A stretch of DNA of 46,951 bases from Candidatus Saccharimonadota bacterium (GTDB taxonomy: Bacteria; Patescibacteriota; Saccharimonadia; CAILAD01; BJGX01): contig JACPPH010000009.1 of NCBI GenBank assembly GCA_016191105.1, positions 1-46,951 of the forward strand, given 5' to 3'. Positions 2,461 through 19,540 of this stretch are shown here, piece by piece. Under the pieces are notes generated by a model. That model did not search any database, was not told the DNA's origin, and saw nothing but the letters and a program-made list of their open reading frames with translations. Numbering within the stretch: the first letter of the stretch is position 1; each line of letters begins with the position of its first letter. The translations under genes and the position numbers were made by a program.

Positions 2461-2476
2461 AGCAGTAATTATAGCA

Positions 2477-2567: not shown

Positions 2568-2729
2568 CTACTTGCTGCGTGGCTCATAGTCGAGACCTCG
2601 AGCCTTGCGCCATTCGGCACACTCGATTGCGTACCGCTCTTGCGCTTCTTCGTCGCTGAGTTCGGGATGCTTACGCCTGAACACCGTGATCGAGGGAAAG
2701 GCGACCGGCACCTCTTGTTCGTCGGTCAT
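2568..2729 (-). CDS. Small hypothetical protein (53 aa), translationally coupled to the purH N-domain gene
   Basis: The ATG at 2729-2727 overlaps the TGA at 2728-2726 (ATGA). The ORF is G+C-rich, and the product is MTDEQEVPVAFPSITVFRRKHPELSDEEAQERYAIECAEWRKARGLDYEPRSK. Confidence 0.5.
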   Translation of the reverse strand: MTDEQEVPVAFPSITVFRRKHPELSDEEAQERYAIECAEWRKARGLDYEPRSK

Positions 2730-3490
2730 CCCACTTGGTCTGGCGCCAGCCCCGGGAACACCGATCCGCACACCGGGCAGGCGTACATGCTGCCCGCACG
2801 GAGCGTCTCGATGCCGTCCAATATGCAGTACGGAGCCCGCACCACAACATCCTCGAACAACTCCGGGTTCTCCGTGCGGATCCAGCTGCGGATCTGCGCG
2901 TCGTAGTTGGAGGTGGTGTCATACGCCTTGTAGGCCAGGCGCTTGCGGGTGCTGGGAGTCAGCATGCCATCATCGGTCTCGGCCAGCTCCTCGAGCACCT
3001 CGGAGTAATCGTTGGGGTCCACCACCACGCCCACATACTCATGGTTCTTGGCGGCTGCTCGCACCATGGCCGGCCCGCCAATGTCGATCAGCTCGATCGA
3101 CGGGTCGGAGCTGAATGGGTACAGGTTGACCACCACCAGGTCGATGGCCTCGATGTCGTAGTCCACCATGTCGGCCCGGTGATCTGGATCGTTGCGATCG
3201 GCCAAGATGCCGCCGTGCACCTTGGGATGCAGGGTGACAACCCGGTGCCCCAAGATGGCCGGGTATCCAGTCAGCTCAGCCACGTCGGTGACCGGTATGC
3301 CCTTTTCGGCGATCTTCTTGGCCGTGCCACCCGAGCTGAGAATCTCCCAGCCCAGAGCGTGCAGACCTCGTGCCAGCTCAACCACATCGGTCTTGTCGTA
3401 GACCGAGATCAGCGCCTTCTTGGGCTTCGGCTTGGTTGTTGTCTCCTCTGCCGATTCCTTGGGCGCTTGCAATGTTTGCGTGTCGGTCAT
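2726..3490 (-). CDS. purH: Stand-alone IMP cyclohydrolase (PurH N-terminal MGS-like domain only) with an unrelated Cys-containing C-terminal tail
   Basis: ALISVYDKT, LSSGGTAKK, VTLHPKVHGGIL, VVVNLYPF and IDIGGPAMVRAAAKNH are colinear with the N domain of E. coli PurH. No RYGENxHQ motif or transformylase part is present. The gene is G+C-rich. Confidence 0.85.
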   Translation of the reverse strand: MTDTQTLQAPKESAEETTTKPKPKKALISVYDKTDVVELARGLHALGWEILSSGGTAKKIAEKGIPVTDVAELTGYPAILGHRVVTLHPKVHGGILADRNDPDHRADMVDYDIEAIDLVVVNLYPFSSDPSIELIDIGGPAMVRAAAKNHEYVGVVVDPNDYSEVLEELAETDDGMLTPSTRKRLAYKAYDTTSNYDAQIRSWIRTENPELFEDVVVRAPYCILDGIETLRAGSMYACPVCGSVFPGLAPDQVG

Positions 3491-3569
3491 GATGACCCTT
3501 CTTTCACTCGTTGGTTCAGACTTTTGTCCAAACTACAGTTTGCTGATTTTTTGCCGTAAAAACAAGCAC

Positions 3570-3600
3570 AACAAAAAACGATCTGTTATTCAGATCGTTT
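3570..3600 (-). terminator. Rho-independent terminator (perfect 10-bp stem plus T-run on the minus strand)
   Basis: The stem is aaacgatctg / cagatcgttt (3576-3600), and the plus-strand A-run at 3571-3578 gives a U-run on the minus strand. Confidence 0.6.
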
Positions 3601-3619
3601 AAACGGCCAATTTTGTGCG

Positions 3620-3679
3620 ATAAAAATCACGTGCGGACCAGCAAGAGCCTTGCTCTAACAAACGTACTTGTCCGCACGT
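3620..3679 (-). terminator. Long stem-loop terminator downstream of the 56-aa ORF
   Basis: acgtgcggac (3629-3638) pairs with gtccgcacgt (3670-3679), with an inner AGCAAG/CTTGCT hairpin. On the minus strand it is followed by GATTTTTA. Confidence 0.55.
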
Positions 3680-3724
3680 CAGACATTTATCTTTCCCAAA
3701 CCATCACCTTTCGCTCGGGCCGTG

Positions 3725-3895
3725 TTATTTAGTGTTATTTTTAGTGTGCATTTTACCGAATGCTCGAGTCTGCATTCGCTCGGCTTTAGCAGCCCATTTG
3801 GTTGCCATTTCGTCTAGTATGTCTTCAACGATTTGGCGATCGCGCAACAGATTACGATTAGCTCGCCTAAACTGTCGCATAACGCGTTTCTTCAT
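3725..3895 (-). CDS. Small basic hypothetical protein (56 aa), absent from the ORF track
   Basis: GGGAGGTGAG lies 6-7 nt upstream of the ATG at 3895. The product is MKKRVMRQFRRANRNLLRDRQIVEDILDEMATKWAAKAERMQTRAFGKMHTKNNTK, with TAA at 3725-3727 followed by two terminators. Confidence 0.45.
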   Translation of the reverse strand: MKKRVMRQFRRANRNLLRDRQIVEDILDEMATKWAAKAERMQTRAFGKMHTKNNTK

Positions 3896-4032
3896 AGTAT
3901 CTCACCTCCCTTCTCAAAAGTAAGAGTACTATTAATATTATACACCCGCGCGGTGCAAAACGTGACCAAATTCTTACAAATTATTTGCAAAATGTATCGC
4001 CAGATGCGCCAAAATAGTAGAATACTATTGTT

Positions 4033-5064
4033 ATGAAACCGCAGCTTCAAGAACATGTCGATTTGGCTCAGCTTACCACCTTTAAAATGGGCGGCACGGC
4101 TCGCTATTTTATCGAAGTTACTCAAGCCGAAGAACTAAAAGACATCTTTGCCTGGATAAAATCCGAAGGGTTACCATATTTCATCCTCTCCGGTGGCAGC
4201 AACACAATCTTCGACGACGGCGAGTTTGATGGTGTGGTTATAAGGATCAATATTGAGGGTTTTAAGGTTGCGGAGCAGGATCAGCAGTCCTGTACAGTTC
4301 AAGTTGGTGCTGGCGAGGTTTGGGACGGCGTGGTTGCTAAATCTGTCGAGATGGGCTTAAGCGGCATTGAGGCTCTCTCGGGTATCCCTGGGCTGGCTGG
4401 CACAGCGCCGGTTCAAAACATTGGTGCCTATGGACAAGAAATATCGGATTGCCTAGAGTATTTGTTGGCCTTCGATACCCAGACTATGCAGATTGAGCAA
4501 ATCTCGCATTACAGCTGCAAATTTGGCTACCGTGACAGCATTTTTAAATCTAGTGCCAAGGGTCGCTACATAATCACCTCGATTGTTCTTAAACTATCTA
4601 AACAGTTTGGCACTATCACCCACTACAAAGATGTGGTTGAATACTTTTCAAACCATTCAGATCTTCAAAAATCCCCGGCCACAGTTCGGGCGGCAGTGCT
4701 AGAAATCAGAAAGTCAAAATTTGCCAACCCCGCCGATAAACCGAATGCTGGCTCTTTCTTTAAAAACCCAATCGTTTCAAGCCAAACCTATCAAGCTGTC
4801 GCCATGCTTAATCCGAATATGCCCCACTACCCGCAAAAAGATGGGCGCGAAAAACTTTCGGCGGGCTGGCTTATAGAAAATTGCGATCTTAAGGGCTACA
4901 AGTCTGGCCGGGTTCAGGTCGACCCCAAACATGCTCTTGTTCTCGAAAATACTGGTGGCGCCAAGACTGAGGAGCTAAAGAAGTTAAGAGATTATATAAT
5001 TCAAAAAGTCCACGAACGGTTCGGCATAACACTCGAGCCCGAACCCGAGATCGTGAACTTTTGA
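4033..5064 (+). CDS. murB: UDP-N-acetylenolpyruvoylglucosamine reductase
   Basis: It has the FAD-binding N-terminus (LTTFKMGGTARYF, LSGGSNT) and the MurB C-terminal GSFFKNP and AGWLIE motifs. Confidence 0.9.
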   Translation: MKPQLQEHVDLAQLTTFKMGGTARYFIEVTQAEELKDIFAWIKSEGLPYFILSGGSNTIFDDGEFDGVVIRINIEGFKVAEQDQQSCTVQVGAGEVWDGVVAKSVEMGLSGIEALSGIPGLAGTAPVQNIGAYGQEISDCLEYLLAFDTQTMQIEQISHYSCKFGYRDSIFKSSAKGRYIITSIVLKLSKQFGTITHYKDVVEYFSNHSDLQKSPATVRAAVLEIRKSKFANPADKPNAGSFFKNPIVSSQTYQAVAMLNPNMPHYPQKDGREKLSAGWLIENCDLKGYKSGRVQVDPKHALVLENTGGAKTEELKKLRDYIIQKVHERFGITLEPEPEIVNF

Positions 5065-5073
5065 ATCTTTTGG

Positions 5074-5493
5074 CTAGTTTATGGCGTAAACAATAGCCGC
5101 CATTACTACTAAGGTAACTAGCTGATTACCCAAGTTGAGCGCCATAAGCTTGGGTGAGCGTTTTTCGAACACCCCGCCACCTACAGCGTAGGTAACAACA
5201 AAGCCCAGCCAGATCCACAGGGCCACTTTAATGGCTTGGAAGTAGCTGTCTGGAGCAGCAATTACAATAAATCTTTTTAAAACAAATGCGCTTACGAAGG
5301 CCATTACCAACATTATTATCATGCCCTTGGCAAAGCCAGACTTCATGTCGCTGTCTTTTAAGCCGACTTCCTTTTGCCACATGGTGCCAAATACTGGCTT
5401 GGCATACCATATACTACCAATTATCATGGCAGCAACAGTAGCTAAAACAATCCCTAACCAGTTGGCAGTAAAGAAACTCAACATGTCATTCAC
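5074..5493 (-). CDS. DUF1761-like integral membrane protein
   Basis: It has four hydrophobic segments, and the N-terminal NWLGIVLATVAAMIIGSIWYAKPVFGTMW pattern is typical of DUF1761. Confidence 0.6.
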   Translation of the reverse strand: MNDMLSFFTANWLGIVLATVAAMIIGSIWYAKPVFGTMWQKEVGLKDSDMKSGFAKGMIIMLVMAFVSAFVLKRFIVIAAPDSYFQAIKVALWIWLGFVVTYAVGGGVFEKRSPKLMALNLGNQLVTLVVMAAIVYAIN

Positions 5494-5550
5494 CTCCCTT
5501 CTTATTTAGTACTTATGCTTATTATTGCTTTGTGTGCACGAAAAAGCAAA

Positions 5551-5769
5551 TCAGTCAGACAGTTTTACAAATCTTGGCTGGCTTTTGCCTTCCCACTCCA
5601 CCGATTCTGCAAACATTTTGGCCGGCCTCACCCAAACCTGCGACTCTTTGTTCTCATACAAGCTAACATACGCTACCATTTCTTCTAACGTCTCAGAATG
5701 TTTGGCATTGGCCAATACTAGATATTTATTGCCTTTGTAGTGCTGGTAAATTCCGGGGCCGATTTTCAT
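5551..5769 (-). CDS. DUF1653-like small protein
   Basis: The YQHYKGNKYLVL...HSETLEEMVAYVSLY...VWVRPAKMF pattern is present. Its start overlaps the proS stop by 1 nt. Confidence 0.65.
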   Translation of the reverse strand: MKIGPGIYQHYKGNKYLVLANAKHSETLEEMVAYVSLYENKESQVWVRPAKMFAESVEWEGKSQPRFVKLSD

Positions 5770-7178
5770 TAATAAGCCTTGGCTAGAATTGTTTTATCTG
5801 GATCATCAAATGGGTAACAGCGCACCGTAATGCCATGCTTAGCCTTGAGCTCGGTTTCTTTTTTATCATCAATCTCAAAATCTGCACTTGCAAACTTGCC
5901 TTGCTCGACCGCTTCAACCAATTCTTTTTCGTCTTTTACAGGCACTGTATTCGAAGTTAGTTGATCTTGCGATGACTTAAGCAGGTTGGCCTGGATGTGG
6001 CCCAGGAGTTTTTCACAGTGGTTTTTAAGATCATCGAGCTTAACCGATGCTTTCTCAGATGTATCGCGGCGAACCACAACCACGGATTTAGATTCAACGT
6101 CGCGCGGGCCAATCTCGATTCGTATGGGTGCACCACGTTTTTCCCAAGCGAAAGCTTTCTCGCCAATGCGGGCATCGCGATCGTCAAGCTCGACATTGCC
6201 AAGCGCACCCAAGGAATCGGCGACCTGCTGAGCCGTTTTTTGAACATTGCCATCGGCATTTACCGTCATAATCACAGCTTTAATCGGTGCGAGTTTTGGC
6301 GGCAACACCAGACCCTTATCGTCGCCATGAGCCATAATTAAGCCACCAATGCTGCGAGTGCTTACTCCCCAGCTAGTCTGCCCAACATATTTTTGACTAC
6401 CATCCTCTGCACTATACTGGACATTAAAAGCTTTGGAGAAATTGTCGCCCAAATTATGCGAAGTGGCTATCTGCAGAGCCTTGCCGTCTTTCATCATAGC
6501 CTCTAGGGTATAGGTGGCTTTAGCGCCAGCAAAGCGCTCGGCCACACTTTTCTCGCCATCTATAGTTGCAATCGCCAATACGTTTGTCATAAGGTCTTGG
6601 TAAAATTCTAATACCTCCCTAGCAAACCCATCGGCTTCTTTAACGCTGGCATGAGCAGTGTGGCCTTCTTGCCACAAAAACTCTGTACTGCGCAGAAAAA
6701 GCCTAGGGCGCATTTCCCAGCGCACCACATTGGCCCACTGATTAATCTTAAATGGCAGGTCGCGATAACTATTAATCCATCTGCTGAAGCTCTCATACAT
6801 AATAGTTTCGCTGGTTGGGCGCACCACCAATGGTTCATCGAGCTTCTTACCGCCAGCATGGGTAACCACAGCTACTTCTGGTGCAAAGCCTTCGACATGC
6901 TTAGCCTCGCGATGCAGATAGCTTTCGGGTATAAAAATCGGGAAGTACATATTGGGTACACCGGCGGCATAAATACGTTGGCTCAATTCCTGTTGAATAC
7001 CTTCCCAAATGGCGTAACCATAAGGCTTAATTATCATGCTGCCCTTACTGGGCCCATGTTCAGCCAGATCGGCTGCCTCCACAACATCCTGATACCACCG
7101 GGGGAAATCTTGGTCTTGGGGAGTTATCTTTTTACTAGATCTGTCGGTACCAATAAAATAAGAGATTTGTTTTTTCAT
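5769..7178 (-). CDS. proS: Prolyl-tRNA synthetase, archaeal/eukaryote-like type
   Basis: It shows class II motifs, is 469 aa long with no bacterial INS editing domain, and has a C-terminal ...RCYPFDD...ILAKAY tail. Confidence 0.9.
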   Translation of the reverse strand: MKKQISYFIGTDRSSKKITPQDQDFPRWYQDVVEAADLAEHGPSKGSMIIKPYGYAIWEGIQQELSQRIYAAGVPNMYFPIFIPESYLHREAKHVEGFAPEVAVVTHAGGKKLDEPLVVRPTSETIMYESFSRWINSYRDLPFKINQWANVVRWEMRPRLFLRSTEFLWQEGHTAHASVKEADGFAREVLEFYQDLMTNVLAIATIDGEKSVAERFAGAKATYTLEAMMKDGKALQIATSHNLGDNFSKAFNVQYSAEDGSQKYVGQTSWGVSTRSIGGLIMAHGDDKGLVLPPKLAPIKAVIMTVNADGNVQKTAQQVADSLGALGNVELDDRDARIGEKAFAWEKRGAPIRIEIGPRDVESKSVVVVRRDTSEKASVKLDDLKNHCEKLLGHIQANLLKSSQDQLTSNTVPVKDEKELVEAVEQGKFASADFEIDDKKETELKAKHGITVRCYPFDDPDKTILAKAY

Positions 7179-7250
7179 ATTGTCATCAATTATAACCGAC
7201 TGTTATCAATTCCACCAGATTAGAGCTGGCAGAAATAGTGAATTTTCTTA

Positions 7251-7279
7251 TTGACTTTCCATAAGCTTTTTGGTAGACT
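7251..7279 (+). promoter_or_regulatory. Candidate sigma70-type promoter (TTGACT-17 nt-TAGACT)
   Basis: TTGACT is at 7251-7256 and TAGACT at 7274-7279 with a 17-nt spacer. It faces the GC-rich 7355-7665 segment. Confidence 0.4.
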
Positions 7280-7371
7280 GGTAATTCTCGTCTCAGGACG
7301 GGATTTTTAGTTGCGATGCCACAGCAGTATCAGACGACACCACAAAATACACACTCCGGGAGGAAAAAGCA

Positions 7372-7593
7372 GTGGCAAATGAAGATGCAACAGGGGGAAC
7401 CGAGGAGAGATTCGTGCCTCGGCTGGTGAATGGTCGCAACCCGAACGCTCGGATAAACACAGACCGCATGCGGATCTGGCAAAACGTTGGCCCCAAGTAC
7501 GGGCCTAGCGCGCCTCCCCAGCCCGACTGGACACCCGACGAGCTCAAGTGCCGAGCCCTACACCCCAGCAACCCTCAGCCCCCATCCGCCTAG
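7372..7593 (+). CDS. Candidate 73-aa Pro-rich hypothetical protein in a GC-rich islet (coding versus ncRNA is unresolved)
   Basis: GGAGG lies 8 nt upstream of a GTG start. Third codon positions are G/C-rich, and a terminator follows 30 nt after the TAG. I see no family match. Confidence 0.35.
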   Translation: MANEDATGGTEERFVPRLVNGRNPNARINTDRMRIWQNVGPKYGPSAPPQPDWTPDELKCRALHPSNPQPPSA

Positions 7594-7622
7594 AACGCAC
7601 GCTGGTGTTCTGGGTCTTACAG

Positions 7623-7676
7623 CCCGCGGTAGTTCGAGACCCCAACCGGTCTCGAACCCGCGGGTTCTCAGTTTTT
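7623..7676 (+). terminator. Two-tier 16-bp hairpin plus T-run; it overlaps the stop codon of the convergent ATPase gene
   Basis: The hairpin is cccgcgg-tag-ttcgagacc-ccaac-c-ggtctcgaa-c-ccgcggg, followed by ttctcagttttt. Confidence 0.6.
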
Positions 7677-9965: not shown

Positions 9966-10003
9966 TTATCTTATGAGTATATCACTTCTTGGTTAAAACT
10001 ACA

Positions 10004-10032
10004 TTGTAAAAGTCACACCTTGATTGTATAAT
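10004..10032 (+). promoter_or_regulatory. Candidate sigma70-type promoter (TTGTAA-17 nt-TATAAT)
   Basis: TTGTAA is at 10004-10009 and TATAAT at 10027-10032. It lies in AT-rich DNA directly upstream of the GC-rich zinc-finger ORF. Confidence 0.5.
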
Positions 10033-10066
10033 TACGCCACAATCCCACAACCGTAAAGGAAGGCTA

Positions 10067-10471
10067 ATGGCGATCAAAACCTGCGCCTTCCCAGACTGTG
10101 GGCAGGTGATCTTTAAGGAAGGTGTGTGCGAAGAGCATTTCTGGGGCCGCTACTCACGCGCATTCATAGCGAGTCTTGTACGCCAGCCGCAAGGTACGAA
10201 CCAATGCGTGTTCCCGGGTTGCGCTCGGAGCATTCTGTCGAGAGGACTGTGTGCTACACATCGAAGGCAGCTGAACCGCGGAGACCTTCATGCAATAGGC
10301 CAACAGACCACACCTAAGCCGTGTAAGTTCAAGGGCTGTCCATTTCGTGCTGAAAGCGATGGCTACTGCCGTGGTCACTACGCTCAGAAGCGCAAAGACA
10401 AGCTGCTTACGCCGCTAGGCAAGCCCAGGCGTAGATCAACTCGAGACCGCCTATACAAACGTCCGCAATGA
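10067..10471 (+). CDS. Small protein with three tandem C-x4-C-x9-C-x2-H zinc-finger units
   Basis: The three units are CAFPDCGQVIFKEGVCEEH, CVFPGCARSILSRGLCATH and CKFKGCPFRAESDGYCRGH, about 40 aa apart. SD AAGGAAGG precedes the start, and the ORF is G+C-rich. Confidence 0.7.
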   Translation: MAIKTCAFPDCGQVIFKEGVCEEHFWGRYSRAFIASLVRQPQGTNQCVFPGCARSILSRGLCATHRRQLNRGDLHAIGQQTTPKPCKFKGCPFRAESDGYCRGHYAQKRKDKLLTPLGKPRRRSTRDRLYKRPQ

Positions 10472-11710: not shown

Positions 11711-11749
11711 AACCAAGCATTTTACCAGATGTTGTATAAAATTACATCT

Positions 11750-11788: not shown

Positions 11789-11812
11789 CCTTGCCGTTTG
11801 GGTTGTTGGTGC

Positions 11813-13234
11813 TCAGAGGATTGAGCCAGGCCGATAGGTAGCCGCCTCGGGGTACTTGGCAACCACTCCCTCTACAGACCGAGCAAACGCCTGGATTTGC
11901 GGTACAGCTGCACCGACCAGGTCGATCGGACTCGAGATGGCATGCTTCATGTCTGGCAAGCTCACCGGCCAATCTGGATTGGCATCGAGCCGAATCAACA
12001 AGAGGTTCTCTTCGCCCTCTCTCATGCTGAGCGCGGCTGAAACAGCCTTCTCCTTGATCATCTCGTGCGCTGTTTCGCGACCCACACCCATCCTCACTGC
12101 CGCCATCAGCAACTTGGTCGTAGCCAGGAACGGCAGAAATCGACGCAGCTCGGCGGCAATGATCTTGGGGAAAGCTCCAAACTCTTCCAGCACAGTCAAC
12201 AGGGTTTCGAAAATCCCATCGATTGCGAAGAATGCATCTGGCAGAACCACCCTACGAACCACACTGCAGCTCACATCGCCCTCGTTCCACTGGTCGCCCA
12301 GCAATTCGTTGGCCATCACCACGAGCCCCTTGAGCACCTTGGTGAGTGCGTTGATGCGTTCACAGCTGCGGGTATTCATCTTGTGAGGCATAGCCGTGCT
12401 TCCGACTTGATCCTTCTGAAACCCCTCGGTCACCAACTCCTGCCCAGCCATCAGCCGGATCGTTGTTGCAAGACTGCTTGGACCGCCGGCCAGCTGCAAC
12501 AAACAGCTAACCACTTCGGAGTCGAGCGAGCGCGGATAGACCTGGCCGACAGAGCCCATGGCGCTTTCGAAGCCCAGGTGCTCGGCCACACCTCGTTCCA
12601 ACACAACAATGTCGTCGGGATTGGGCAAGATGTCGAGCATGTCTTGTTGAGTACCTACCGGACCCTTGATGCCACGAAGCGGATATGAGCCCAGAACGTA
12701 ATCCAGGTGGCCAAACGCATGGAGCAGCTCCTCGCCAAAGTTGGCGAACCGCTTTCCCAACGTGATTGGCTGAGCAGCCACGTTGTGGCTACGGCCAGCC
12801 ATGACCAAGCTCGAGTTCTCGGTAGCCAGCTCTGCCATGCGCACCAGTACGGTCACCGCCTTGTTGCGAATCAGCTCCAACGATCGGCGTACCTGCATTT
12901 GTTCGACGTTCTCGGTCAGATCGCGACTGGTCATGCCCTTGTGGATCTGCTCGTGACCAGCCAGGGCGTTGAACACCTCGATCTTGGCCTTCACGTCGTG
13001 ACGCAGCTTTCGCTCAAGTGTCTCGATGGCAATGAGATCCACGTCGTACAGCGCGGCCTCGTATGCTTCGATCGCACCGTCTGGAATTTCCACGCCCAGC
13101 CGCTTCTGAAGCTTCATTACTGCCACCCAAAGCTCCCGCTCCATGATGGTTTTTTGCTCGAGCCCCCAGATTGCCACCATCTCCTCAGAGGCATAGCGAT
13201 GGGCCAGAACGTCGGGAATCGTTGTCTTGGCCAT
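11813..13234 (-). CDS. purB: Adenylosuccinate lyase
   Basis: It belongs to the fumarate-lyase superfamily (GSTAMPHKMNTRSCE signature; MAKTTIPDVLAHRYASEEMVAIW N-terminus). AAGGAGG lies 6 nt upstream of the ATG at 13234. The gene is G+C-rich. Confidence 0.85.
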   Translation of the reverse strand: MAKTTIPDVLAHRYASEEMVAIWGLEQKTIMERELWVAVMKLQKRLGVEIPDGAIEAYEAALYDVDLIAIETLERKLRHDVKAKIEVFNALAGHEQIHKGMTSRDLTENVEQMQVRRSLELIRNKAVTVLVRMAELATENSSLVMAGRSHNVAAQPITLGKRFANFGEELLHAFGHLDYVLGSYPLRGIKGPVGTQQDMLDILPNPDDIVVLERGVAEHLGFESAMGSVGQVYPRSLDSEVVSCLLQLAGGPSSLATTIRLMAGQELVTEGFQKDQVGSTAMPHKMNTRSCERINALTKVLKGLVVMANELLGDQWNEGDVSCSVVRRVVLPDAFFAIDGIFETLLTVLEEFGAFPKIIAAELRRFLPFLATTKLLMAAVRMGVGRETAHEMIKEKAVSAALSMREGEENLLLIRLDANPDWPVSLPDMKHAISSPIDLVGAAVPQIQAFARSVEGVVAKYPEAATYRPGSIL

Positions 13235-13405
13235 GATGGCCCTCCTTAGATTAGGGCACCGATGGCGCCAGTGTTTTTCAAGTTTACCCAAACGGGCACT
13301 GCTTATTATGTTATGAACTAGTAGCCCAAACAAGCATAAGCACGGCTAGCTTGATCAAATTATCAATACTCGCCTATACTAAAATCAAACTAAGCGGAGA
13401 TTGGC

Positions 13406-14614
13406 ATGAAAATAGTAGTTGTTGGTTCGGGCGGTCGCGAGCACGCACTGGTTGAGGCCTTTAAGCGCGAAGGTAACGAAGTAGTAATAACTCCAGGTAG
13501 GCCGGATTGTATTCCCGGCTCGATCGATACCTCGGTCCATGATATTGAAGCCGATCTTTACGTGGTTGGCCCCGAGGCGCCTCTAGTTGATGGCGAGGCC
13601 GATAAGTTGCGAGCCAAAGGCAAATTAGTGTTTGGACCAAACAAAGACGGTGCACAAGTCGAGGGCTCCAAAGCTTACATGAAACAACTGCTCGCCGATG
13701 CCAAGGTGCCCACTGCCGATTTTGGTGTATTTACCGATGTTAAACCAGCTAATGAGTTTCTAAAAAAACTAAATGGCAAAGCCGCCATTAAGACCAGTGG
13801 CCTAGCCGGGGGCAAGGGTGTATTTGTAAGTCAAAATATCGACGAGGGTTTAGCCGACATAAAAGATAAGTTAAGCGGTAAGTCGTTTGGTGAGGCCGGC
13901 CAAGAAATTGTAGTTGAAGAGTTTTTAGATGGTCGTGAGTTCTCGGTGTTTGCAATCACCGATGGCAAAAAAGTTGTAGCTTTGCCGGTCGCGCAAGATT
14001 ACAAGCGACTCGAAAACGGCGCCATGACTGGCGGCGTGGGTTCTTACTCGCCAGTTAACCACATCGACGACAAAACGCTCGACAGGGTTGTTAAAACCTG
14101 CATACAACCAACTCTCGACGAGCTACGCAAACGCGGCATAGGCTACCGCGGAGTTTTGTACATGGGCGGCATGCTAGGTAGAGATGGCAGCACCAAAGTG
14201 CTCGAATATAACATTCGCTTTGGTGATCCAGAGGCTCAAGTTGTTTTACCAAGAGTCGACAACCTAACCGATTTGCTTTACGAAGCCGCCAGCGGCGAGC
14301 TCAAAAGTCAGCCCCAAATAAACAACAAGGCACTAGCCTTGGTTGTACTGTGTGCCGAAGGCTACCCCGACAATCCCGTTAAAAACGTTGAAATAAAAGG
14401 CCTAGATACTGCAGCCAATACTGATGGTGTTACAATTTTGCACGCTGGCACCAAATCTGATGGCGGCAGCATTCTGGTTGATGGTGGCCGCACTATCAAT
14501 GTGGTAGCCGAAGGCAAAAGCATAGAGCAAGCTCGCAAGCGAGCCTACGACGCAGTTAACAAAATCAGTTGGCCTGGTATGCAATATCGTAGTGATATTG
14601 CCAAAGATATTTAG
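13406..14614 (+). CDS. purD: Phosphoribosylamine-glycine ligase
   Basis: It starts MKIVVVGSGGREHAL, has ATP-grasp features and is about 400 aa long. Confidence 0.9.
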   Translation: MKIVVVGSGGREHALVEAFKREGNEVVITPGRPDCIPGSIDTSVHDIEADLYVVGPEAPLVDGEADKLRAKGKLVFGPNKDGAQVEGSKAYMKQLLADAKVPTADFGVFTDVKPANEFLKKLNGKAAIKTSGLAGGKGVFVSQNIDEGLADIKDKLSGKSFGEAGQEIVVEEFLDGREFSVFAITDGKKVVALPVAQDYKRLENGAMTGGVGSYSPVNHIDDKTLDRVVKTCIQPTLDELRKRGIGYRGVLYMGGMLGRDGSTKVLEYNIRFGDPEAQVVLPRVDNLTDLLYEAASGELKSQPQINNKALALVVLCAEGYPDNPVKNVEIKGLDTAANTDGVTILHAGTKSDGGSILVDGGRTINVVAEGKSIEQARKRAYDAVNKISWPGMQYRSDIAKDI

Positions 14615-15825
14615 CGCGAGCCGCCCACAAAGGTTAGGGCCTGGCCGCTGTTACCGGCTCGGCCGGTTCGCCCTATACGGTGAATGTAATCTTCGTATGT
14701 ACCTGGCTGATCGAAGTTAATCACATGACTTACATTTGGTATATCAAGCCCTCGAGCCGCAACGTCGGTTGCAACAAGTATGCGAACGTCGTTTTTCTTA
14801 AATGCGTCGAGCGCTCGTTGGCGTTGCGACTGCGACTTATTGCCGTGTATGGCCGCGGCTTTGAGGCCTTGCTTAGTAAGGGTGTCGGCCAATCGTTGCA
14901 CGCCCCACTTGGTTTCGCCAAACACCAAAACTTTTTCGAACTCTGGTTTTTTTAGCATACCAATTAGCATTTTGAGCTTTTCGTCTTTTGAGTAGGCTCG
15001 AATTACGTCTTGCTCAACATGCTCGCTGGTTTCGGTAGTGCGTACCGAAACAGTTACTGGGTCATTTAAGATGTTTTGTATTAATCGCTCAATTGTTGGC
15101 GTGATAGTGGCGCTGAAACACAACGACTGGCGGACTTTTGGTAGTTGGTCGATCAAAAATTGGATGTCTTTTATAAAACCCATATCGAGCATGCGGTCGG
15201 CCTCGTCGAGCACAAGATGATTGGTGTTGTTTAAACGCAATGCTCCTTGGCCCACTAAGTCTTTGAGTCGTCCTGGGGTGCCAATTACAAACTGGGGTTT
15301 GCGTGCTAGAGCTCGGATTTGTCGCTGCATGTTGGCACCGCCCACACACAAAGCCGAATACAGGTTTAGCCCCTTGGCAAAGGCCTTAAACTCATCATCT
15401 ATCTGCACAGCAAGCTCGCGGGTTGGCGCTACAATCAGAACTCCGCCCTGACCATTCTTGGCCATGAGATTGTTAATTATTGGTAGCAAAAAGGCGGCGG
15501 TTTTGCCAGTGCCAGTGTTGGCTAGCCCAATCAAATCACGACCCTCCAAAACTGCTGGGATAGATTGATCTTGAATTGGCGTTGGAACTTCATAGCCCTT
15601 GGCGACTATGTTGCGCTTAAGCGCGTCGCTCAAAGCAAAGTCTACAAACCTATGGGTCGGCTCGTATTCGACAACTTCAGATCTGGCTGTGGCCTTATTT
15701 ATAAATTTTTCTGGGTTAATGTAGCCGCCCTGGCGATTCGGTCGCTGCTTGCGGCCGCGCTGGCTGCTACTGTAGACCCGCCGGCTACTTTTGTAGCCCG
15801 AACGAGCAAAGGAGTTATTCTGCAT
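14611..15825 (-). CDS. DEAD-box ATP-dependent RNA helicase with a basic N-terminal extension
   Basis: It has a Q motif region, GTGKTAAF, VAPTRELA, DEAD, SAT and HRIGRTGRAG. Confidence 0.9.
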   Translation of the reverse strand: MQNNSFARSGYKSSRRVYSSSQRGRKQRPNRQGGYINPEKFINKATARSEVVEYEPTHRFVDFALSDALKRNIVAKGYEVPTPIQDQSIPAVLEGRDLIGLANTGTGKTAAFLLPIINNLMAKNGQGGVLIVAPTRELAVQIDDEFKAFAKGLNLYSALCVGGANMQRQIRALARKPQFVIGTPGRLKDLVGQGALRLNNTNHLVLDEADRMLDMGFIKDIQFLIDQLPKVRQSLCFSATITPTIERLIQNILNDPVTVSVRTTETSEHVEQDVIRAYSKDEKLKMLIGMLKKPEFEKVLVFGETKWGVQRLADTLTKQGLKAAAIHGNKSQSQRQRALDAFKKNDVRILVATDVAARGLDIPNVSHVINFDQPGTYEDYIHRIGRTGRAGNSGQALTFVGGSR

Positions 15826-15977
15826 GAATACCTTTCGTTATATTATTCTGTCTGCTTCGACGAACAGCGAGAATAATTTTTACGAAGTTTAAGATCCCGG
15901 CATTCATCAATTCAAATGTAAGCTAATTATAGCACATAATCTTAGCTTTGTCTACTATCTCTTTTTACAGATACATA

Positions 15978-16388
15978 CTACGTCTTTGGCTGCAAAATTG
16001 AGAACCGGTTATCCTCGGTATCAATAGCCGAGATCCACAGGCCAACACCTGGAATCGCTTGCGGCTCCAAGGTGTACTTTCCGTCTTGCCCAATAGAGCC
16101 AAGAACTTTACCGCCAGCCAACTCAATCGCTTTCACGGCTGCTTTAGCATCTTCGACTGCGAGCACTACCGATGGAGCTTGACTAAGTGGGTTATTGGTT
16201 TTGGCATAAAAGCCACCGTTAATTGCGCCTTTGGTTTGAACCATGCCGTCTTTATCTGTTTTGGTGGTGTGAGCAACAACATAGTTGCCCATTTCTGGGC
16301 CAAACTTTTGAGTTTCCCACCCAAAAGCTGACTCGTAAAACTTAATCATACGGTCTTGATCTTTGTAGCCCATTTCGAAGTGAACCAC
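15978..16388 (-). CDS. VOC/glyoxalase-fold protein (5' end uncertain; possible 1-nt frameshift)
   Basis: The VHFEMGYKDQDRMIKFYESAFGWE pattern is present. An SD plus ATG at 16407 lies one frame off (see findings). Confidence 0.65.
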   Translation of the reverse strand: MVHFEMGYKDQDRMIKFYESAFGWETQKFGPEMGNYVVAHTTKTDKDGMVQTKGAINGGFYAKTNNPLSQAPSVVLAVEDAKAAVKAIELAGGKVLGSIGQDGKYTLEPQAIPGVGLWISAIDTEDNRFSILQPKT

Positions 16389-16466
16389 TTGGATTCATTT
16401 TTGCCATAATTATCTCCTGCTAATTCTTAGTTATACTCTATTCCTTTGCGTAGCCCAATGAAATGT

Positions 16467-16967
16467 TTAGAGCTTTACTATATTGAGCAATAAAAGCACC
16501 AATGAAATCGGCATGCCAAAGTCCCAAATGAGTATGTAGAGGTTATTCGGAGCAAAGTTGTGTTTAGTAATAATTTCTTTAAGGTGATTAAGGCCGGCCA
16601 AAAACAAAAAGGTAACTATTGGTAACGAAATTGCCACCCAGGCCTCGACCCCATGATAAACCGCATAAAAGCAACCCAGACCTAAACCCAAACTAACTGC
16701 TGCAATCTCGTATTGAAAGCCATTGGTTTTCCAGCCAATCGAAGCCGCCATTTTTCTGGCAAAGACCGAATGCATAACCGATGAAAATATAAATACAAAA
16801 CCAGCAAAATACAACAGCCAGCGAAGATCTACAATTAAGCGGCTGTCGCCCGGCACTGCACCCGGTGGTGTAACACCGCTCAAGGCTAATACCCACGCCA
16901 AAACAAAAAGTCCAGGCAAAACAAACCCAGACATCTTTTGACTTATGCTTTTGTTTTTTGCCACCAT
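16467..16967 (-). CDS. Integral membrane protein, unknown function
   Basis: It has about 5 hydrophobic helices and no recognisable motif. Confidence 0.5.
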   Translation of the reverse strand: MVAKNKSISQKMSGFVLPGLFVLAWVLALSGVTPPGAVPGDSRLIVDLRWLLYFAGFVFIFSSVMHSVFARKMAASIGWKTNGFQYEIAAVSLGLGLGCFYAVYHGVEAWVAISLPIVTFLFLAGLNHLKEIITKHNFAPNNLYILIWDFGMPISLVLLLLNIVKL

Positions 16968-17011
16968 ACTTAAACCCAGTTTAGCATAAGCACTATAAAA
17001 TCATCAATCAG

Positions 17012-17266
17012 CTAAACTTTAAAGGTATTGAGCTGTTTTAGTAATCGATCTTGTTCCGAATATAGCTCGTCGTACTTTCGTGCCGTATATATTTTAGGGT
17101 CATATTCAGAATCCTCATTTTCTACCCGCGGCGAGTAATACAAGGCCAGCTCTTCTTTCACTTTTTTTAGCCTTGTTCGCACCTCGTCTCGTGTCATGTT
17201 GTATATATTATATACCCTCATAGCTCGCTCGCCTACTCTAAAACTAAAATAAACCTTCATCAGCAT
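17012..17266 (-). CDS. Small hypothetical protein (start uncertain)
   Basis: This is an open frame only. The product is charged and helical (MTRDEVRTRLKKVKEEL...). Confidence 0.35.
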   Translation of the reverse strand: MLMKVYFSFRVGERAMRVYNIYNMTRDEVRTRLKKVKEELALYYSPRVENEDSEYDPKIYTARKYDELYSEQDRLLKQLNTFKV

Positions 17267-17577
17267 CGTTTGTTGGAGAAGAAAAGTTCAAACAGCTCTA
17301 GGACGGAGGTAAGAACCGGCGTACGTATTGTTCTCGCAAGATTAACCACAACTGCCCAGAAAAGTACCTGCCAGAGAGTTCTTTGGTCAATCAGCTAGTT
17401 GGCATTAACCATTTACTGAAGGTGAGCAAAAAGAATGCTGAATCAGGGCTATTGCTAGCAATAGATAAATACGGCAAGATGATGCTATCATCTAGCCCAG
17501 AGCTGGATTAGTAAATGAGGATGATGCTCAACCAAGTACTGAACCCAAGGCATTACGGTCGCCTTTGGTGCACTACT

Positions 17578-17652
17578 TGGCTGGGGCGGTAGGATTCGAA
17601 CCTACGATCTCTTGAGCCAGAATCAAGCGCCTTACCACTTGGCCACGCCCCA
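17578..17652 (-). tRNA. tRNA-Gln (anticodon CUG), CCA encoded
   Basis: The reverse complement TGGGGCGTGGCCAAGTGGTAAGGCGCTTGATTCTGGCTCAAGAGATCGTAGGTTCGAATCCTACCGCCCCAGCCA folds as a cloverleaf. It has a U1-A72 pair as in E. coli tRNA-Gln, anticodon loop TTCTGGC and T-loop GGTTCGAATCC. Confidence 0.9.
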
Positions 17653-17866
17653 ACGTTTTAGCAAAGTTTTGGCTAATATAGCAAATATACCATTTGTTAT
17701 ATATGCTTTTACTTTACTACTCCACTTCGATTCAAATTTCTTCGACAATTTAAATCGGCTAGAATCTCATTCCTTTATCTTGCCATGAAATCACATAAGC
17801 ACAGCGAGCAATAGAACCTGTGTATTTTAACAAAAACGCAATCAATTTTCCAGATCTACACGCCTA

Positions 17867-18214
17867 ATGCTACAATGTATACATATGGATCCAATTGCAA
17901 AGATTGGCACTAAAAAGTTACTCAGAGTCGTTGGGCTAGTAGCCTTTTGTACGCTTTTGGGCGGCTCAATATTTTACCACTATACCGAGCGCCTCAGCTG
18001 GGTCGACAGTTTTTACTTTAGTACTGTTACCCTGGCTACGGTTGGCTATGGCGACATAGTACCCCGCACCAACACTGGCAAGATATTTACGATATTCTAT
18101 ATATTAGGCGGCATTGGCATAATCGTAGCTTTTGCTAACATTTTGGTTCGCCGGGCTGGTGAACGGGCGGTCGAAAAGGCCAAAAAACGTAAAGAAGAAA
18201 AAGCTAATAAGTAA
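17867..18214 (+). CDS. Two-TM potassium channel (minimal pore-only type)
   Basis: The selectivity filter TLATVGYGD is flanked by two hydrophobic helices. The protein is 115 aa long. Confidence 0.85.
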   Translation: MLQCIHMDPIAKIGTKKLLRVVGLVAFCTLLGGSIFYHYTERLSWVDSFYFSTVTLATVGYGDIVPRTNTGKIFTIFYILGGIGIIVAFANILVRRAGERAVEKAKKRKEEKANK

Positions 18215-18220
18215 TTTATA

Positions 18221-18269
18221 GCCAAAATGCGAAGGGCGGCTCCGGAGTCGAAACTCCAGAACCGCCCTT
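18221..18269 (-). terminator. Hairpin terminator at the end of the purH-C islet (possibly bidirectional)
   Basis: aagggcgg (18232-39) pairs with ccgccctt (18262-69), with an inner GGAG/CTCC stem. On the minus strand it is followed by TTCGCATTTTGG. Confidence 0.55.
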
Positions 18270-18316
18270 GCCGATATGAAACCACCAAGCGGAGTGTTGG
18301 GTGGCCCCACATAGAC

Positions 18317-18535
18317 TTATTCAGTTGTAGCCGATTCAGTTGGAACTTCCTCGGCCTGTCCGTTGCAGACGATGCAAGTCACCGATTCGATCACGTCCCT
18401 CAGAACCTCCGAATCCTCATCGTTGAACCCGTCGTCCTTGCCCAGCCCGAAGTGTCTAAACACTTTGGTTCGGACTGTGCGAACAACTTCGAAGTCGTTG
18501 CTGTTGCCGCACGGGCACTTGTAGCGAGTTGGCAT
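18317..18535 (-). CDS. Small (72 aa) putative zinc-ribbon protein downstream of the purH C-domain gene
   Basis: It has CPCG near the N-terminus and CIVC near the C-terminus. The ATG lies 9 nt after the purH-C stop, and the ORF is G+C-rich. Confidence 0.5.
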   Translation of the reverse strand: MPTRYKCPCGNSNDFEVVRTVRTKVFRHFGLGKDDGFNDEDSEVLRDVIESVTCIVCNGQAEEVPTESATTE

Positions 18536-18544
18536 CCGGCTCGC

Positions 18545-19540
18545 CTAGTGTTTGAAGTGGCGTTCGCCGGTGAAGACCATGGCAAGGCCATGCTCGTCGG
18601 CCGCGGCAATCACCTCGTCGTCGCGAATTGAGCCGCCGGGCTGGATCACCACAGCGGCGCCGGCCTCGACAGCGCCGTCGAGGCCGTCGGGGAACGGGAA
18701 GAACGCATCGCTGGCATACACGCCGCCTTTGGCTCGGCCGGCAGCCTTCTCACAGGCCAGATTGCCAGCATCACGTCGGTTCTGCTGACCACAGCCGATG
18801 CCGACGGCTTTCTGACCCATGACCAGAACGATGGCATTGCTAGTGGTTTTGGCAACCACTCGCCAGGCCATCTCGACATCTCGCCATTGCCACCTGGTCG
18901 GCCTCTTCTTGGTAACCACCCTCCAGGCCGAGGGATCAACCGTGACTGGATCAGGCGTCTGCACCAAGTAGCCACCGTCGATTGGCCTCATGATGTGAGG
19001 TGGCGGTGAGCCGGGTGGCTTGGCTTCGATCAGGCGCATGTCCTTCTTTTTGAGTAGAAGCTCTTTGGCGCCGTCTTCGAATCCCGGCACGATCATCACC
19101 TCGGTGAAGACCGACTTGATGGCCCTGGCAATACCCAGAGTCACCGGGCGGTTCAGAGCCACAATGCCGCCATAGGCAGACACTGGATCGCAGGCATGAG
19201 CCGCCTTGTAGGCAGCCGTGATGCTTCCCGCAATTGCCGCACCGCACGGGTTGGCATGCTTGATCACCACGGCTGTCGGGTCGTTGCCGAGAGACCAAGC
19301 CAGCCGCCAGGCCGCATCGGCATCAGCGACGTTGAGAAAGCTCATTTCCTTGCCGCCATGTTGCACGGCTGTGTTCCACCAGCCACCCTTCCCACCCACT
19401 ACCGAATAGCGAGCGCCGAGCTGATGTGGGTTCTCGCCGTAACGCAGCACCTCATTGCGCTTCAGCGTGATCGTGATCTCTTCGGGCAGCTGCTCGTCGA
19501 TGTTGGCCTTTTCGTCGTTGGTTTCGTCGGTCTTGCTCAT
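18545..19540 (-). CDS. purH: Stand-alone AICAR transformylase (PurH C-terminal domain only)
   Basis: [39 protein letters not shown] and [34 protein letters not shown] are colinear with the C domain of E. coli PurH. SD GAGGAGGGG precedes the start. The gene is G+C-rich. Confidence 0.9.

What the first reader, a model, noticed from the sequence alone, without database searches (positions are those of the whole stretch)
2726..19540. purH is split into separate cyclohydrolase-only and transformylase-only genes, 15 kb apart on two different GC-rich islets
Established: bacterial PurH is normally one bifunctional chain, with an N-terminal IMP cyclohydrolase (MGS-like) domain and a C-terminal AICAR transformylase domain. 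Seen: ORF 2726-3490 matches only the N domain (ALISVYDKT, SSGGTAKK, VTLHPKVHGGIL, VVVNLYPF, IDIGGPAMVRAAAKNH) and then runs into an unrelated tail (…RAPYCILDGIETLRAGSMYACPVCGSVFPG…). ORF 18545-19540 starts just before RYGENPHQ and contains only the transformylase domain, down to [34 protein letters not shown]. Both are intact ORFs with good SDs, on the same strand, in unrelated operon contexts; the C half lies directly downstream of trmD. Inference: this is either a functional two-subunit PurH or two independent acquisitions that each supply one activity.
Basis: partly seen in the sequence, partly recalled or inferred. Interest (0 to 1): 0.8.

Follow-up and report, generated by a model that had tools for sequence, protein, structure and literature searches.

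The report
Split purine enzyme PurH in Saccharibacteria
A tiny epibiotic bacterium (Saccharibacteria/TM7) carries the normally fused last enzyme of purine synthesis as two separate, intact genes 15 kb apart. Both came from high-GC actinobacteria, but split PurH is already known in other bacteria and archaea, so this is a well-supported new example, not a new kind of system.

Summary
ORF 2726-3490 (minus strand) encodes only the IMP cyclohydrolase domain plus a 49-residue tail. ORF 18545-19540 (minus strand) encodes only the AICAR formyltransferase domain. Together they cover PurH once, and the break lies in the interdomain linker. Both sit in ~62% GC islets in a 48.6% GC Saccharimonadales (TM7) contig.

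It is not a mis-assembly. An independent Logan assembly embeds each half in host flanks. Three other metagenomic genomes carry the same halves at the same loci.

The genes are not decaying. dN/dS is 0.10-0.16 for the C half and 0.28-0.37 for the N half. The halves keep 68/70 and 148/154 near-invariant PurH positions.

The same two full-length Actinomycetota-like PurHs are nearest or tied-nearest to both window halves (about 76-78% identity). That favours one donor lineage over two unrelated acquisitions.

Most likely these are two independent monofunctional enzymes (PurJ/PurH2 plus PurV/PurH1). A physical complex is neither needed nor shown.

Split purH is already described: purV/purJ in 44 of 1,266 bacterial genomes, and Archaeoglobus PurH2 has been assayed. 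So this is a new member of a known kind.

One puzzle remains. The N half of one relative (L004) groups with a different actinobacterial PurH clade, yet it shares the locus and the zinc-ribbon tail.

The parts
2726..3490 (-). purJ-like gene (stand-alone IMP cyclohydrolase, the N half of PurH), 254 aa. It has a leader (residues 1-22), the IMPCH domain (residues ~23-205, window 2876-3424) and a degenerate zinc-ribbon tail (residues 206-254, window 2729-2875).
   Evidence: ORF and translation. Pfam and NCBIfam hits. 3ZZM alignment to residues 11-197. 68/70 near-invariant columns retained. AlphaFold pLDDT is above 90 for the domain and 46-64 for the tail. Foldseek gives rmsd 1.7-2.0 A to the IMPCH domains of PurH/ATIC and TM 0.81 to stand-alone ForH.
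2568..2729 (-). GC-rich 53-aa ORF whose start overlaps the purJ stop codon (ATGA). It is part of the foreign islet.
   Evidence: Sequence. Called as a gene on the Logan contig. A weak homologue lies downstream of purJ in L086/L087 (31% over 35 aa, E 0.014). GC 0.595. No Pfam family.
3576..3600 (-). Terminator-like hairpin between the conserved 56-aa ORF and purJ. It implies that purJ has its own promoter.
   Evidence: 10-bp stem followed by a T run.
18545..19540 (-). purV-like gene (stand-alone AICAR formyltransferase, the C half of PurH), 331 aa. A new 17-residue leader ([17 protein letters not shown]) precedes the domain.
   Evidence: ORF. Pfam PF01808 positions 62-311 at E 8e-82, and PRK00881 positions 197-510. 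3ZZM alignment to residues 217-523 at E 2e-75. 148/154 near-invariant columns retained, and the [27 protein letters not shown] and RHFKH motifs are present. Orthologues at 81% and 72% identity.
19541..19625 (-). Conserved upstream region of purV (promoter/5'UTR with the GGAGG Shine-Dalgarno sequence). It is better conserved than the coding sequence across three genomes.
   Evidence: Alignment. It is retained next to purV in L003 although another gene separates trmD from purV there. A predicted anti-SD hairpin shows no covariation. No Rfam match.
18317..18535 (-). Small Cys-rich (CxC...CxxC) 72-aa ORF directly downstream of purV. A counterpart sits at the same position in L003 (79 aa) and L088 (start only).
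   Evidence: L088: 80% over the first 15 aa. Similarity to the L003 ORF is only 27% identity and BLAST does not detect it, so homology is uncertain. No Pfam family.
18230..18270 (-). Terminator-like hairpin that closes the purV islet.
   Evidence: Sequence. Partial detection.
19642..20316 (-). trmD, the host gene directly upstream of purV (end of the rpsP-KH-trmD cluster).
   Evidence: Pfam tRNA_m1G_MT on the Logan contig. The same neighbourhood occurs in L003 and L088.
11813..13234 (-). purB (adenylosuccinate lyase). GC3 is also raised, at 0.68.
   Evidence: NCBIfam TIGR00928 scores 364.6, above its cut-off of 326.
13406..14614 (+). purD (GAR synthetase).
   Evidence: NCBIfam TIGR00877 scores 403.9, above its cut-off of 288.
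35166..36927 (-). purM-like (35794-36927) and purN-like (35166-35801) genes. They add purine-pathway context.
   Evidence: Pfam AIRS/AIRS_C and Formyl_trans_N. The best NCBIfam hits are purM and PurN, but both are below cut-off.

Best explanation
The window is from a Saccharimonadales bacterium (Candidatus Saccharibacteria/TM7, Patescibacteria). In it, steps 9 and 10 of de novo purine synthesis are encoded by two separate monofunctional genes. One is a stand-alone AICAR formyltransferase (PurV/PurH1 type, 18545-19540). The other is a stand-alone IMP cyclohydrolase (PurJ/PurH2 type, 2726-3490).

Both derive from a bifunctional purH of a high-GC Actinomycetota lineage (Acidimicrobiia-like). The gene was cut in the interdomain linker. 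Each half gained its own start or stop, its own short leader or tail, and its own expression signals.

The arrangement arose before the divergence of at least three to four related genomes. It has been kept by purifying selection while the GC content slowly falls toward the host's.

Proposed mechanism (inferred, not shown). PurV, as a homodimer, formylates AICAR with 10-formyl-tetrahydrofolate to give FAICAR. FAICAR diffuses to PurJ, which cyclises it to IMP. No physical PurJ-PurV complex is required. The zinc-ribbon tail of PurJ is most likely a decaying by-product of the rearrangement that made the split.
For: The split is real:
- Each half sits inside a separate contig of an independent Logan assembly with host genes on both sides. 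These contigs are 100% identical to the window and overlap each other by 30 nt.

The break is in the linker:
- The halves abut in the interdomain linker and together cover PurH once.

The split is conserved:
- L003 has a C-half-only gene (81% identity) in the same rpsP-KH-trmD ... purD-purB-tgt neighbourhood.
- L004 has an N-half-only gene next to the same 56-aa ORF and murB.
- One ENA sample has both an N half (P0002, with its own stop) and a C half (P0122, downstream of trmD) on separate contigs.
- The leaders are conserved among orthologues.

The halves co-diverge with the host:
- Window versus L003: purV 81%, against trmD 87%, DEAD 80%, purD 75%, S16 74%, tgt 66%, purB 64%. Synonymous sites are saturated.

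Selection and integrity:
- dN/dS is 0.10-0.16 for the C half and 0.28-0.37 for the N half.
- 68/70 and 148/154 near-invariant columns of 111 full-length PurHs are kept.
- The IMPCH fold is confirmed.

One donor lineage for the window halves:
- P0124 and P0132 are the two nearest full-length proteins to the C half (76.3/75.8%). They tie with two others for nearest to the N half (77.7%).
- Both halves have GC about 0.62. Sampled close full-length relatives (P0124, P0132, P0131) have GC about 0.70 and GC3 above 0.9.
- Named relatives are Acidimicrobiia or Actinomycetes.

Host identity:
- The LeuRS carries a NUDIX insert, and all named hits are Candidatus Saccharimonadales.
- The best TGT hits are almost all Patescibacteria.

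Pathway context:
- purD, purB, purN-like and purM-like genes are in the window.

The separated domains can work:
- Truncated human ATIC domains are each active (Rayl 1996, as cited in PMC6486802).
- Naturally unfused A. fulgidus PurH2 is active and complements E. coli (PMC6797443).
- purV/purJ pairs replace purH in 44 bacterial genomes (PMC6486802).
Against: - No activity, expression or interaction data exist.
- The rest of the genome is unseen, so a fused purH, a purO or missing upstream pur genes cannot be excluded.
- The physical route of the split is unresolved. On the coding strand the C half lies 15 kb upstream of the N half, so a simple insertion into the linker cannot explain it. No repeats or mobile-element traces link the islets.
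- On domain sequence the N halves are not monophyletic (0/100 bootstraps). The L004 N half groups with a different full-length clade. A single clean 'one transfer, one fission, vertical descent' history therefore does not hold for all N halves.
- The donor assignment rests on a few named hits. The organism names of the closest full-length proteins were truncated in the output.
- Lys66 (human ATIC numbering, from my own knowledge) is Val in the N half. The closest full-length PurHs also have Val there.
Confidence: 0.8

Rival explanations
1. Two independent acquisitions: the window's N half and C half came from different donors or events, each supplying one activity.
For: The halves sit in separate islets 15 kb apart, each with its own flanking small GC-rich ORF. 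N-half sequences of different genomes have different nearest full-length relatives, so more than one transfer into this clade seems to have happened. GC3 differs somewhat between the halves, 0.82 versus 0.72.
Against: For the window itself, P0124 and P0132 are nearest or tied-nearest to both halves, with nearly equal identity. The two pieces abut in the linker with no loss and no true overlap. Two unrelated captures would not be expected to do that. Both halves co-occur in at least two genomes or samples.
Confidence: 0.1
2. A non-covalent two-subunit PurH: PurJ and PurV reassemble into a complex. The zinc-ribbon tail of PurJ and/or the small Cys-rich protein encoded after purV might help assembly.
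For: A zinc-ribbon tail occurs on two of three N halves. A small Cys-rich ORF follows purV in all three genomes. The AICARFT equilibrium benefits from coupling to IMPCH (from my own knowledge).
Against: The tail is absent in P0002. It has lost two of five Cys in the window and is modelled with low confidence (pLDDT 46-64). The small ORF is only 27% identical between the window and L003, with dN/dS 0.49. The separated domains are active on their own (PMC6486802, PMC6797443). The review cited there states that fused PurH has no channel between the two sites (PMC6486802).
Confidence: 0.08
3. Artefact or decay: an assembly chimera, or two pseudogene remnants of a broken purH.
For: The GC-rich pieces in a lower-GC contig look foreign. 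The N half ends in a non-PurH tail.
Against: An independent assembly and three other samples reproduce the junctions. Both ORFs are intact. dN/dS is well below 1 at saturated dS. Invariant residues are kept.
Confidence: 0.02

Closest known systems
purV / purJ gene pairs of bacteria (Cruz et al. 2019, Genome Biol Evol, PMC6486802)
   Same: Separate genes encode the AICARFT domain and the IMPCH domain of PurH. They are often not adjacent and often not in a pur context (63% of cases). They are inferred to replace purH.
   Different: That survey covered complete genomes such as Prevotellaceae and Fervidobacteriaceae and did not report Patescibacteria. Here both halves are 76-78% identical to full-length actinobacterial PurHs and are still GC-rich. 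This therefore looks like an independent, comparatively young fission of a horizontally acquired gene. The N half also carries an added zinc-ribbon tail.
Archaeoglobus fulgidus PurH2 (AF1811), a naturally unfused IMP cyclohydrolase (PMC6797443)
   Same: It is a stand-alone IMPCH domain. Its activity and its complementation of an E. coli mutant are shown, which proves that the domain works unfused.
   Different: It is archaeal and is partnered with PurP rather than with a PurH-type transformylase. It has no tail, and it is not of recent bacterial PurH origin.
ForH (PDB 6NKO), a stand-alone IMPCH homologue
   Same: It is a roughly 200-aa stand-alone protein with the IMPCH fold. Foldseek TM-score is 0.81 normalised to ForH, and phmmer E-value is 4e-30.
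   Different: It is only 38-40% identical. It belongs to a secondary-metabolite pathway (from my own knowledge), not to primary purine synthesis.
Stand-alone AICAR formyltransferase family NF005492 / PRK07106 (390 aa)
   Same: It is a transformylase-only protein.
   Different: The window's C half scores only 148.7 bits against a cut-off of 415. It scores 381.5 bits on the bifunctional PurH model. It is a truncated bifunctional-type PurH, not a member of that older stand-alone family.
Bifunctional PurH/ATIC (for example M. tuberculosis 3ZZM, human 1PKX)
   Same: Both domains, their motifs and the IMPCH fold are the same. The halves align to 3ZZM residues 11-197 and 217-523.
   Different: Here there is no single chain. 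The linker is replaced by a new stop plus tail on one side and a new start plus leader on the other.

Membership tests
Bifunctional PurH (TIGR00355 / NF002049 equivalogs) | One polypeptide that carries both the IMPCH and the AICARFT domain and reaches the model's cut-off. | tested here: not met
   The N ORF covers model positions 5-202 and scores 241 bits. The C ORF covers positions 197-510 and scores 381.5 bits. Both are below the cut-off of 402. They are two ORFs 15 kb apart.
IMP cyclohydrolase domain of PurH (PurJ/PurH2) | MGS-like fold with the SVxDK, SGGT, TLHP, NLYPF, IDIGG and AAKNH motifs. | tested here: met
   Pfam MGS at E 6.5e-17. All the motifs are present, and 68/70 near-invariant columns are kept. 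The AlphaFold model superposes on ATIC/PurH IMPCH domains at 1.7-2.0 A.
AICAR formyltransferase domain of PurH (PurV/PurH1) | A complete AICARFT domain from the RYGENPHQ motif to the C-terminal RHFxH, including the catalytic Lys-His. | tested here: met
   PF01808 positions 62-311 at E 8e-82. The alignment to 3ZZM residues 217-523 runs to the last residue. The [34 protein letters not shown] and GERHFKH motifs are present, and 148/154 near-invariant columns are kept.
purV/purJ replacement of purH (sensu PMC6486802) | Both domains are encoded by separate genes in the same genome. | tested here: met
   Both genes are on one 46,951-bp contig. The same pair is found in ENA sample ERZ28614411.
purV/purJ replacement of purH (sensu PMC6486802) | No fused purH in the genome (anticorrelation with purH). 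| not testable with these tools
   Only the window and short related contigs are available.
Stand-alone AICARFT family NF005492 (PRK07106) | A score at or above the curated cut-off of that equivalog. | tested here: not met
   148.7 bits against a cut-off of 415.
Functional enzymes of steps 9 and 10 | AICAR to FAICAR and FAICAR to IMP activity, or complementation of a purH mutant. | not testable with these tools
   Indirect support only: purifying selection, conserved residues and pathway neighbours.

The most novel reading that the evidence does not exclude
The purine islets of this Saccharimonadales clade may be repeatedly overwritten with DNA from Actinomycetota, the phylum of all known Saccharibacteria hosts. 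The likely route is natural transformation and homologous recombination.

The N half sits at the same locus in all genomes, with the same break point. It carries a homologous zinc-ribbon tail in two of the three genomes.

Its cyclohydrolase domain, however, groups with one actinobacterial PurH clade in the window and the ENA genome, and with a different clade in L004 (split in 200/200 NJ bootstraps).

If true, the GC-rich islets record ongoing host-to-epibiont gene conversion of a metabolic gene, not one old transfer.
Probability: 0.2. Interest if true: 0.6.

Novelty: new member of a known kind. Interest (0 to 1): 0.38.

Why it matters
Saccharibacteria and other Patescibacteria are described as unable to make their own nucleotides (PMC7786006). 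Their cultured members live on Actinobacteria and are naturally competent (PMC10633639).

This clade has kept a purine-pathway step that came from high-GC Actinomycetota, and has kept it in split form across several related genomes. That is a concrete, datable case of metabolic gain by horizontal transfer in a reduced epibiont.

It is also a natural experiment showing that PurH tolerates fission at its linker. It adds Patescibacteria to the taxa with purV/purJ-type splits. It gives annotators a reason not to call such halves pseudogenes or fragments.

It does not change how PurH is understood to work.

Tried and rejected
1. Genome-contig scan with the window's TGT as a central anchor and 10-kb flanks. 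It was meant to capture both purH loci in relatives. The best hits were at most 60% identical. The best-scoring hits were almost all Patescibacteria. None of the 80 loci carried a split purH (three Clostridia-type loci carry only a distant purH-like match), and none was syntenic.

2. Metagenome-contig scan with a concatenated N+C query. It returned only full-length purH from unrelated organisms and no new split loci. The scan was wasted.

3. The idea that the N-half tail is a remnant of the start of the AICARFT domain (LDGIETLRAGS...APDQVG against [17 protein letters not shown]). Rejected. The tail is homologous to the intact CxxC...CxxCxxC zinc ribbon of P0003, which shows no such similarity.

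4. The idea that the tail comes from a ribonucleotide-reductase-type C-terminal zinc ribbon. Only non-significant hits appeared (NRDD E 0.5; generic zinc ribbons E at least 0.05).

5. Many 'short PurH' hits on long contigs looked like stand-alone purJ genes in donors. Most of the 16 tails inspected are Arg/Pro/Ala-rich frameshift nonsense. The rest look like truncated, contaminated or internally duplicated ORFs. None has a tail like the one here. They are assembly artefacts.

6. Repeats or mobile-element scars that might link the two islets. Only chance-level matches of 16-26 nt were found.

7. A ZTP or other riboswitch upstream of purV. There was no Rfam hit.

8. The small ORFs of the islets next to purH in full-length PurH loci. 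They were not found in the loci held.

9. Co-transfer of purN with purH. The window's purN is only 45% identical to the purN of the closest full-length locus and has host-like GC.

Full report
**Observation**

The window (46,951 bp, GC 0.486) has two ORFs on the minus strand. They are 2726-3490 (254 aa) and 18545-19540 (331 aa).

- The first ORF matches the MGS-like domain and only the first 66 positions of Pfam AICARFT_IMPCHas. On NCBIfam's PurH model it covers positions 5-202 of 510.
- The second ORF matches AICARFT_IMPCHas positions 62-311 and PurH model positions 197-510.
- Against M. tuberculosis PurH (3ZZM) they align to residues 11-197 and 217-523.
- An alignment with 111 full-length PurHs places the break in the interdomain linker. 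The N piece follows PurH through '...YDAQIRSWI' and then diverges. The C piece has a new leader ([17 protein letters not shown]) and then follows PurH from 'LPEEITITL...RYGENPHQ' to the last residue.
- Both genes lie in GC-rich islets (0.62 and 0.61; GC3 0.82 and 0.72). Neighbouring genes have GC3 of about 0.44-0.55.
- Each islet also includes a small downstream ORF and a hairpin.

The genes are on the minus strand, and the C half is the upstream one on that strand.

**Not an artefact**

An independent Logan assembly of run SRR12113392 gives two contigs, of 14,881 and 23,645 bp. Each contains one half with host genes on both sides. The fetched parts are 100% identical to the window (333-13490 and 15184-29540). 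From the contig lengths, the two contigs overlap by about 30 nt. Three further data sets reproduce the junctions, as described below.

**Who carries it**

- The window's LeuRS has a NUDIX insert. That insert is shared by most of the ~960-aa hits listed, and every named hit is 'Candidatus Saccharimonadales bacterium'.
- The best TGT hits in 185,579 species genomes are at most 60% identical, and almost all of them are Patescibacteria.
- The host is therefore a poorly sampled Saccharimonadales lineage (Saccharibacteria/TM7).

**Who it came from**

- The nearest full-length PurHs are 72-78% identical. Those whose DNA was fetched have GC about 0.70, GC3 above 0.9 and a purN-purH arrangement.
- Named relatives are Desertimonas, Acidimicrobiaceae and 'Actinomycetes'.
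- Among 111 full-length proteins, P0124 and P0132 are the two nearest to the window's C half (76.3/75.8%). They tie with two others for nearest to its N half (77.7%).
- This, together with the halves abutting without loss or true overlap, favours one donor gene over two unrelated captures.

**Conservation**

- L003 (Logan SRR21686417) has a C-half-only gene (330 aa, 81% identity). Its neighbourhood is the same: rpsP-KH-trmD ... ion channel, DEAD, purD, purB, tgt, ATPase.
- L004 (NCBI GCA_964565675.1) has an N-half-only gene (242 aa). It lies directly after the same conserved 56-aa ORF and near murB.
- ENA sample ERZ28614411 has an N half with its own stop (P0002, 204 aa) after the same 57-aa ORF. 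It also has a C half (P0122, 334 aa) after trmD.
- The leaders are conserved among orthologues.
- Divergence of the halves matches that of host genes. For window against L003: purV 81%; trmD 87%, DEAD 80%, purD 75%, S16 74%, tgt 66%, purB 64%. Synonymous sites are saturated everywhere.
- The split therefore predates these lineages.
- dN/dS is 0.10-0.16 for the C half and 0.28-0.37 for the N half including its leader and tail.
- The halves keep 68/70 and 148/154 of the columns that are at least 97% conserved in full-length PurHs. All the classical motifs are present.
- An AlphaFold model of the N half has pLDDT above 90 across most of the domain. It superposes on the IMPCH domains of PurH/ATIC at 1.7-2.0 A, and on stand-alone ForH with TM 0.81.
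- All orthologues are still GC-rich (0.60-0.63) in flanks of 0.47-0.50. This is consistent with amelioration still in progress.

**How it most likely works**

- The window also carries purD and purB (both above NCBIfam cut-offs) and purN-like and purM-like genes. The two genes therefore sit in a purine-synthesis context.
- The literature shows that the domains work when separated. Truncated human ATIC halves are each active, and purV/purJ pairs replace purH in 44 of 1,266 bacterial genomes (PMC6486802). Naturally unfused A. fulgidus PurH2 is active and complements E. coli (PMC6797443).
- The best reading is two independent enzymes, with FAICAR diffusing between them.
- A terminator lies upstream of purJ.
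- A strongly conserved ~85-nt region lies upstream of purV. It is kept in L003 even though another gene separates purV from trmD there.
- Together these suggest that each gene has its own expression signals.

**The tail and the small ORFs**

- The window's tail (…APYCILDGIETLRAGSMYACPVCG…) matches the tail of L004's protein (…APICMQCGIQMLPTGSCWACPACG…) at 13 of 24 positions without gaps (tblastn: 52% over 25 residues, E 7e-5).
- L004's tail is an intact zinc ribbon. The window's has lost two Cys. P0002 has no tail.
- The window's tail is modelled with low confidence.
- No family or donor gene could be assigned to it.
- It looks like a decaying by-product of the rearrangement, not an assembly module.
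- A small Cys-rich ORF follows purV in all three genomes, but it is poorly conserved.

**How the gene was physically split is unresolved**

On the coding strand the C half precedes the N half by 15 kb, so a simple insertion into the linker is excluded. No repeats link the islets.

**An unexplained twist**

- The C halves are monophyletic (99/100 NJ bootstraps), but the N halves are not (0/100).
- The window and ENA N halves group with the full-length 'A' proteins (P0124/P0132).
- L004's N half is 82% identical to a different group (P0131/P0149/P0140/P0139) and 72-73% identical to group A.
- The split {L004 N half + B | window N half, P0002, A} appears in 200/200 bootstraps.
- At 15 A/B-discriminating columns the window reads 10 A: 1 B and L004 reads 1 A: 12 B.
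- Caveats: those columns are polymorphic among other PurHs. The groups were chosen after the fact. Only NJ was available.
- dS to the nearest sampled full-length genes is 0.66-0.82, so neither event is recent.
- Same locus, same break and same tail, but a different domain origin. This would fit replacement of the domain by recombination with a second actinobacterial purH in one lineage.
- Saccharibacteria are naturally competent and grow on Actinobacteria (PMC10633639).
- This remains a hypothesis.

**Comparison with what is known**

- Functionally and architecturally this is a purV/purJ (PurH1/PurH2) split, which is a catalogued phenomenon.
- The C half is not a member of the older stand-alone AICARFT family NF005492 (148.7 bits against a cut-off of 415). 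It scores far better on the bifunctional model.
- Apparent stand-alone N halves in high-GC contigs are assembly artefacts: mostly frameshifted ORFs, the rest truncated, contaminated or internally duplicated.
- This is therefore an independent and comparatively young fission of a transferred gene.
- Saccharibacteria are reported to lack complete purine synthesis, although 6 of 12 enzymes have been seen (PMC7786006). Whether this genome has the whole pathway cannot be told from the window.

**Verdict**

- Observation: confirmed.
- Interpretation: partly supported. The split is functional, one donor lineage is likely, and a complex is neither shown nor needed.
- Novelty: new member of a known kind.
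- Interest: moderate. It rests on the CPR host, the origin from the hosts' phylum, and the unexplained polyphyly of the N half.

Noticed in passing
window 19541-19625 (minus strand); L003 3035-3121; L088 438-524: The ~85 nt upstream of purV are nearly invariant across three genomes (for example GGCGATAAACTTCGCTAAACGTTCCAAGGACAACCCGAGGAGGGGA), although the coding sequence is only about 75% identical. RNAalifold predicts a small hairpin and an anti-SD pairing, but with no covariation. There is no Rfam family, and no ZTP riboswitch. It may be a promoter or leader regulatory element.
   Followed up: partly
L004 3898-4626 compared with window 2726-3490: The N half of this relative shares the locus and the zinc-ribbon tail, but its cyclohydrolase domain groups with a different actinobacterial PurH clade (200/200 NJ bootstraps). 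L004 also has an extra GC-rich Cys-rich small ORF upstream of purJ. The domain may have been replaced by recombination.
   Followed up: partly
window 25195-28074 (minus strand): The leucyl-tRNA synthetase (959 aa) carries a NUDIX domain (PF00293) insert. Most of the ~960-aa Saccharimonadales LeuRS hits share it. Shorter hits of ~820 aa lack it.
   Followed up: no
window 7179-7667: A 490-nt GC-rich (0.63) gap without a convincing ORF lies between the P-type ATPase and proS. It has no Rfam match, and its folding energy is not unusual (z -1.29). It starts with a strong hairpin that may terminate the ATPase gene.
   Followed up: partly
window 11813-13234, 13406-14614, 35166-36927: purB, purD, purN-like and purM-like genes are present in a Saccharibacteria contig. 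purB also has raised GC3 (0.68) and may be another transferred gene. purN is only 45% identical to the purN of the closest full-length PurH locus and has host-like GC.
   Followed up: partly
window 10067-10471 (+), 41139-41702, 1-300, 46101-46400: There are further short GC-rich patches. The ORF at 10067-10471 has weak zinc-finger-like Pfam hits. The ORFs at 41139-41702 have no family. Their origin was not examined.
   Followed up: no
L003 2000-3004: A 334-aa ORF with no Pfam family is inserted between trmD and purV in the relative. It is absent from the window.
   Followed up: no
proteins P0005-P0120: Most of the 16 'short PurH' proteins inspected, several from long contigs, end in Arg/Pro/Ala-rich nonsense, which is typical of frameshifted high-GC ORFs. 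A few others look truncated, contaminated or internally duplicated (for example P0005, P0010). They are assembly artefacts that inflate apparent stand-alone N halves in the protein database.
   Followed up: yes
window 17578-17652 and 38773-38849 (minus strand): tRNA-Gln(CTG) and tRNA-Ala(GGC). These are the only Rfam or ARAGORN RNA genes in the window.
   Followed up: yes
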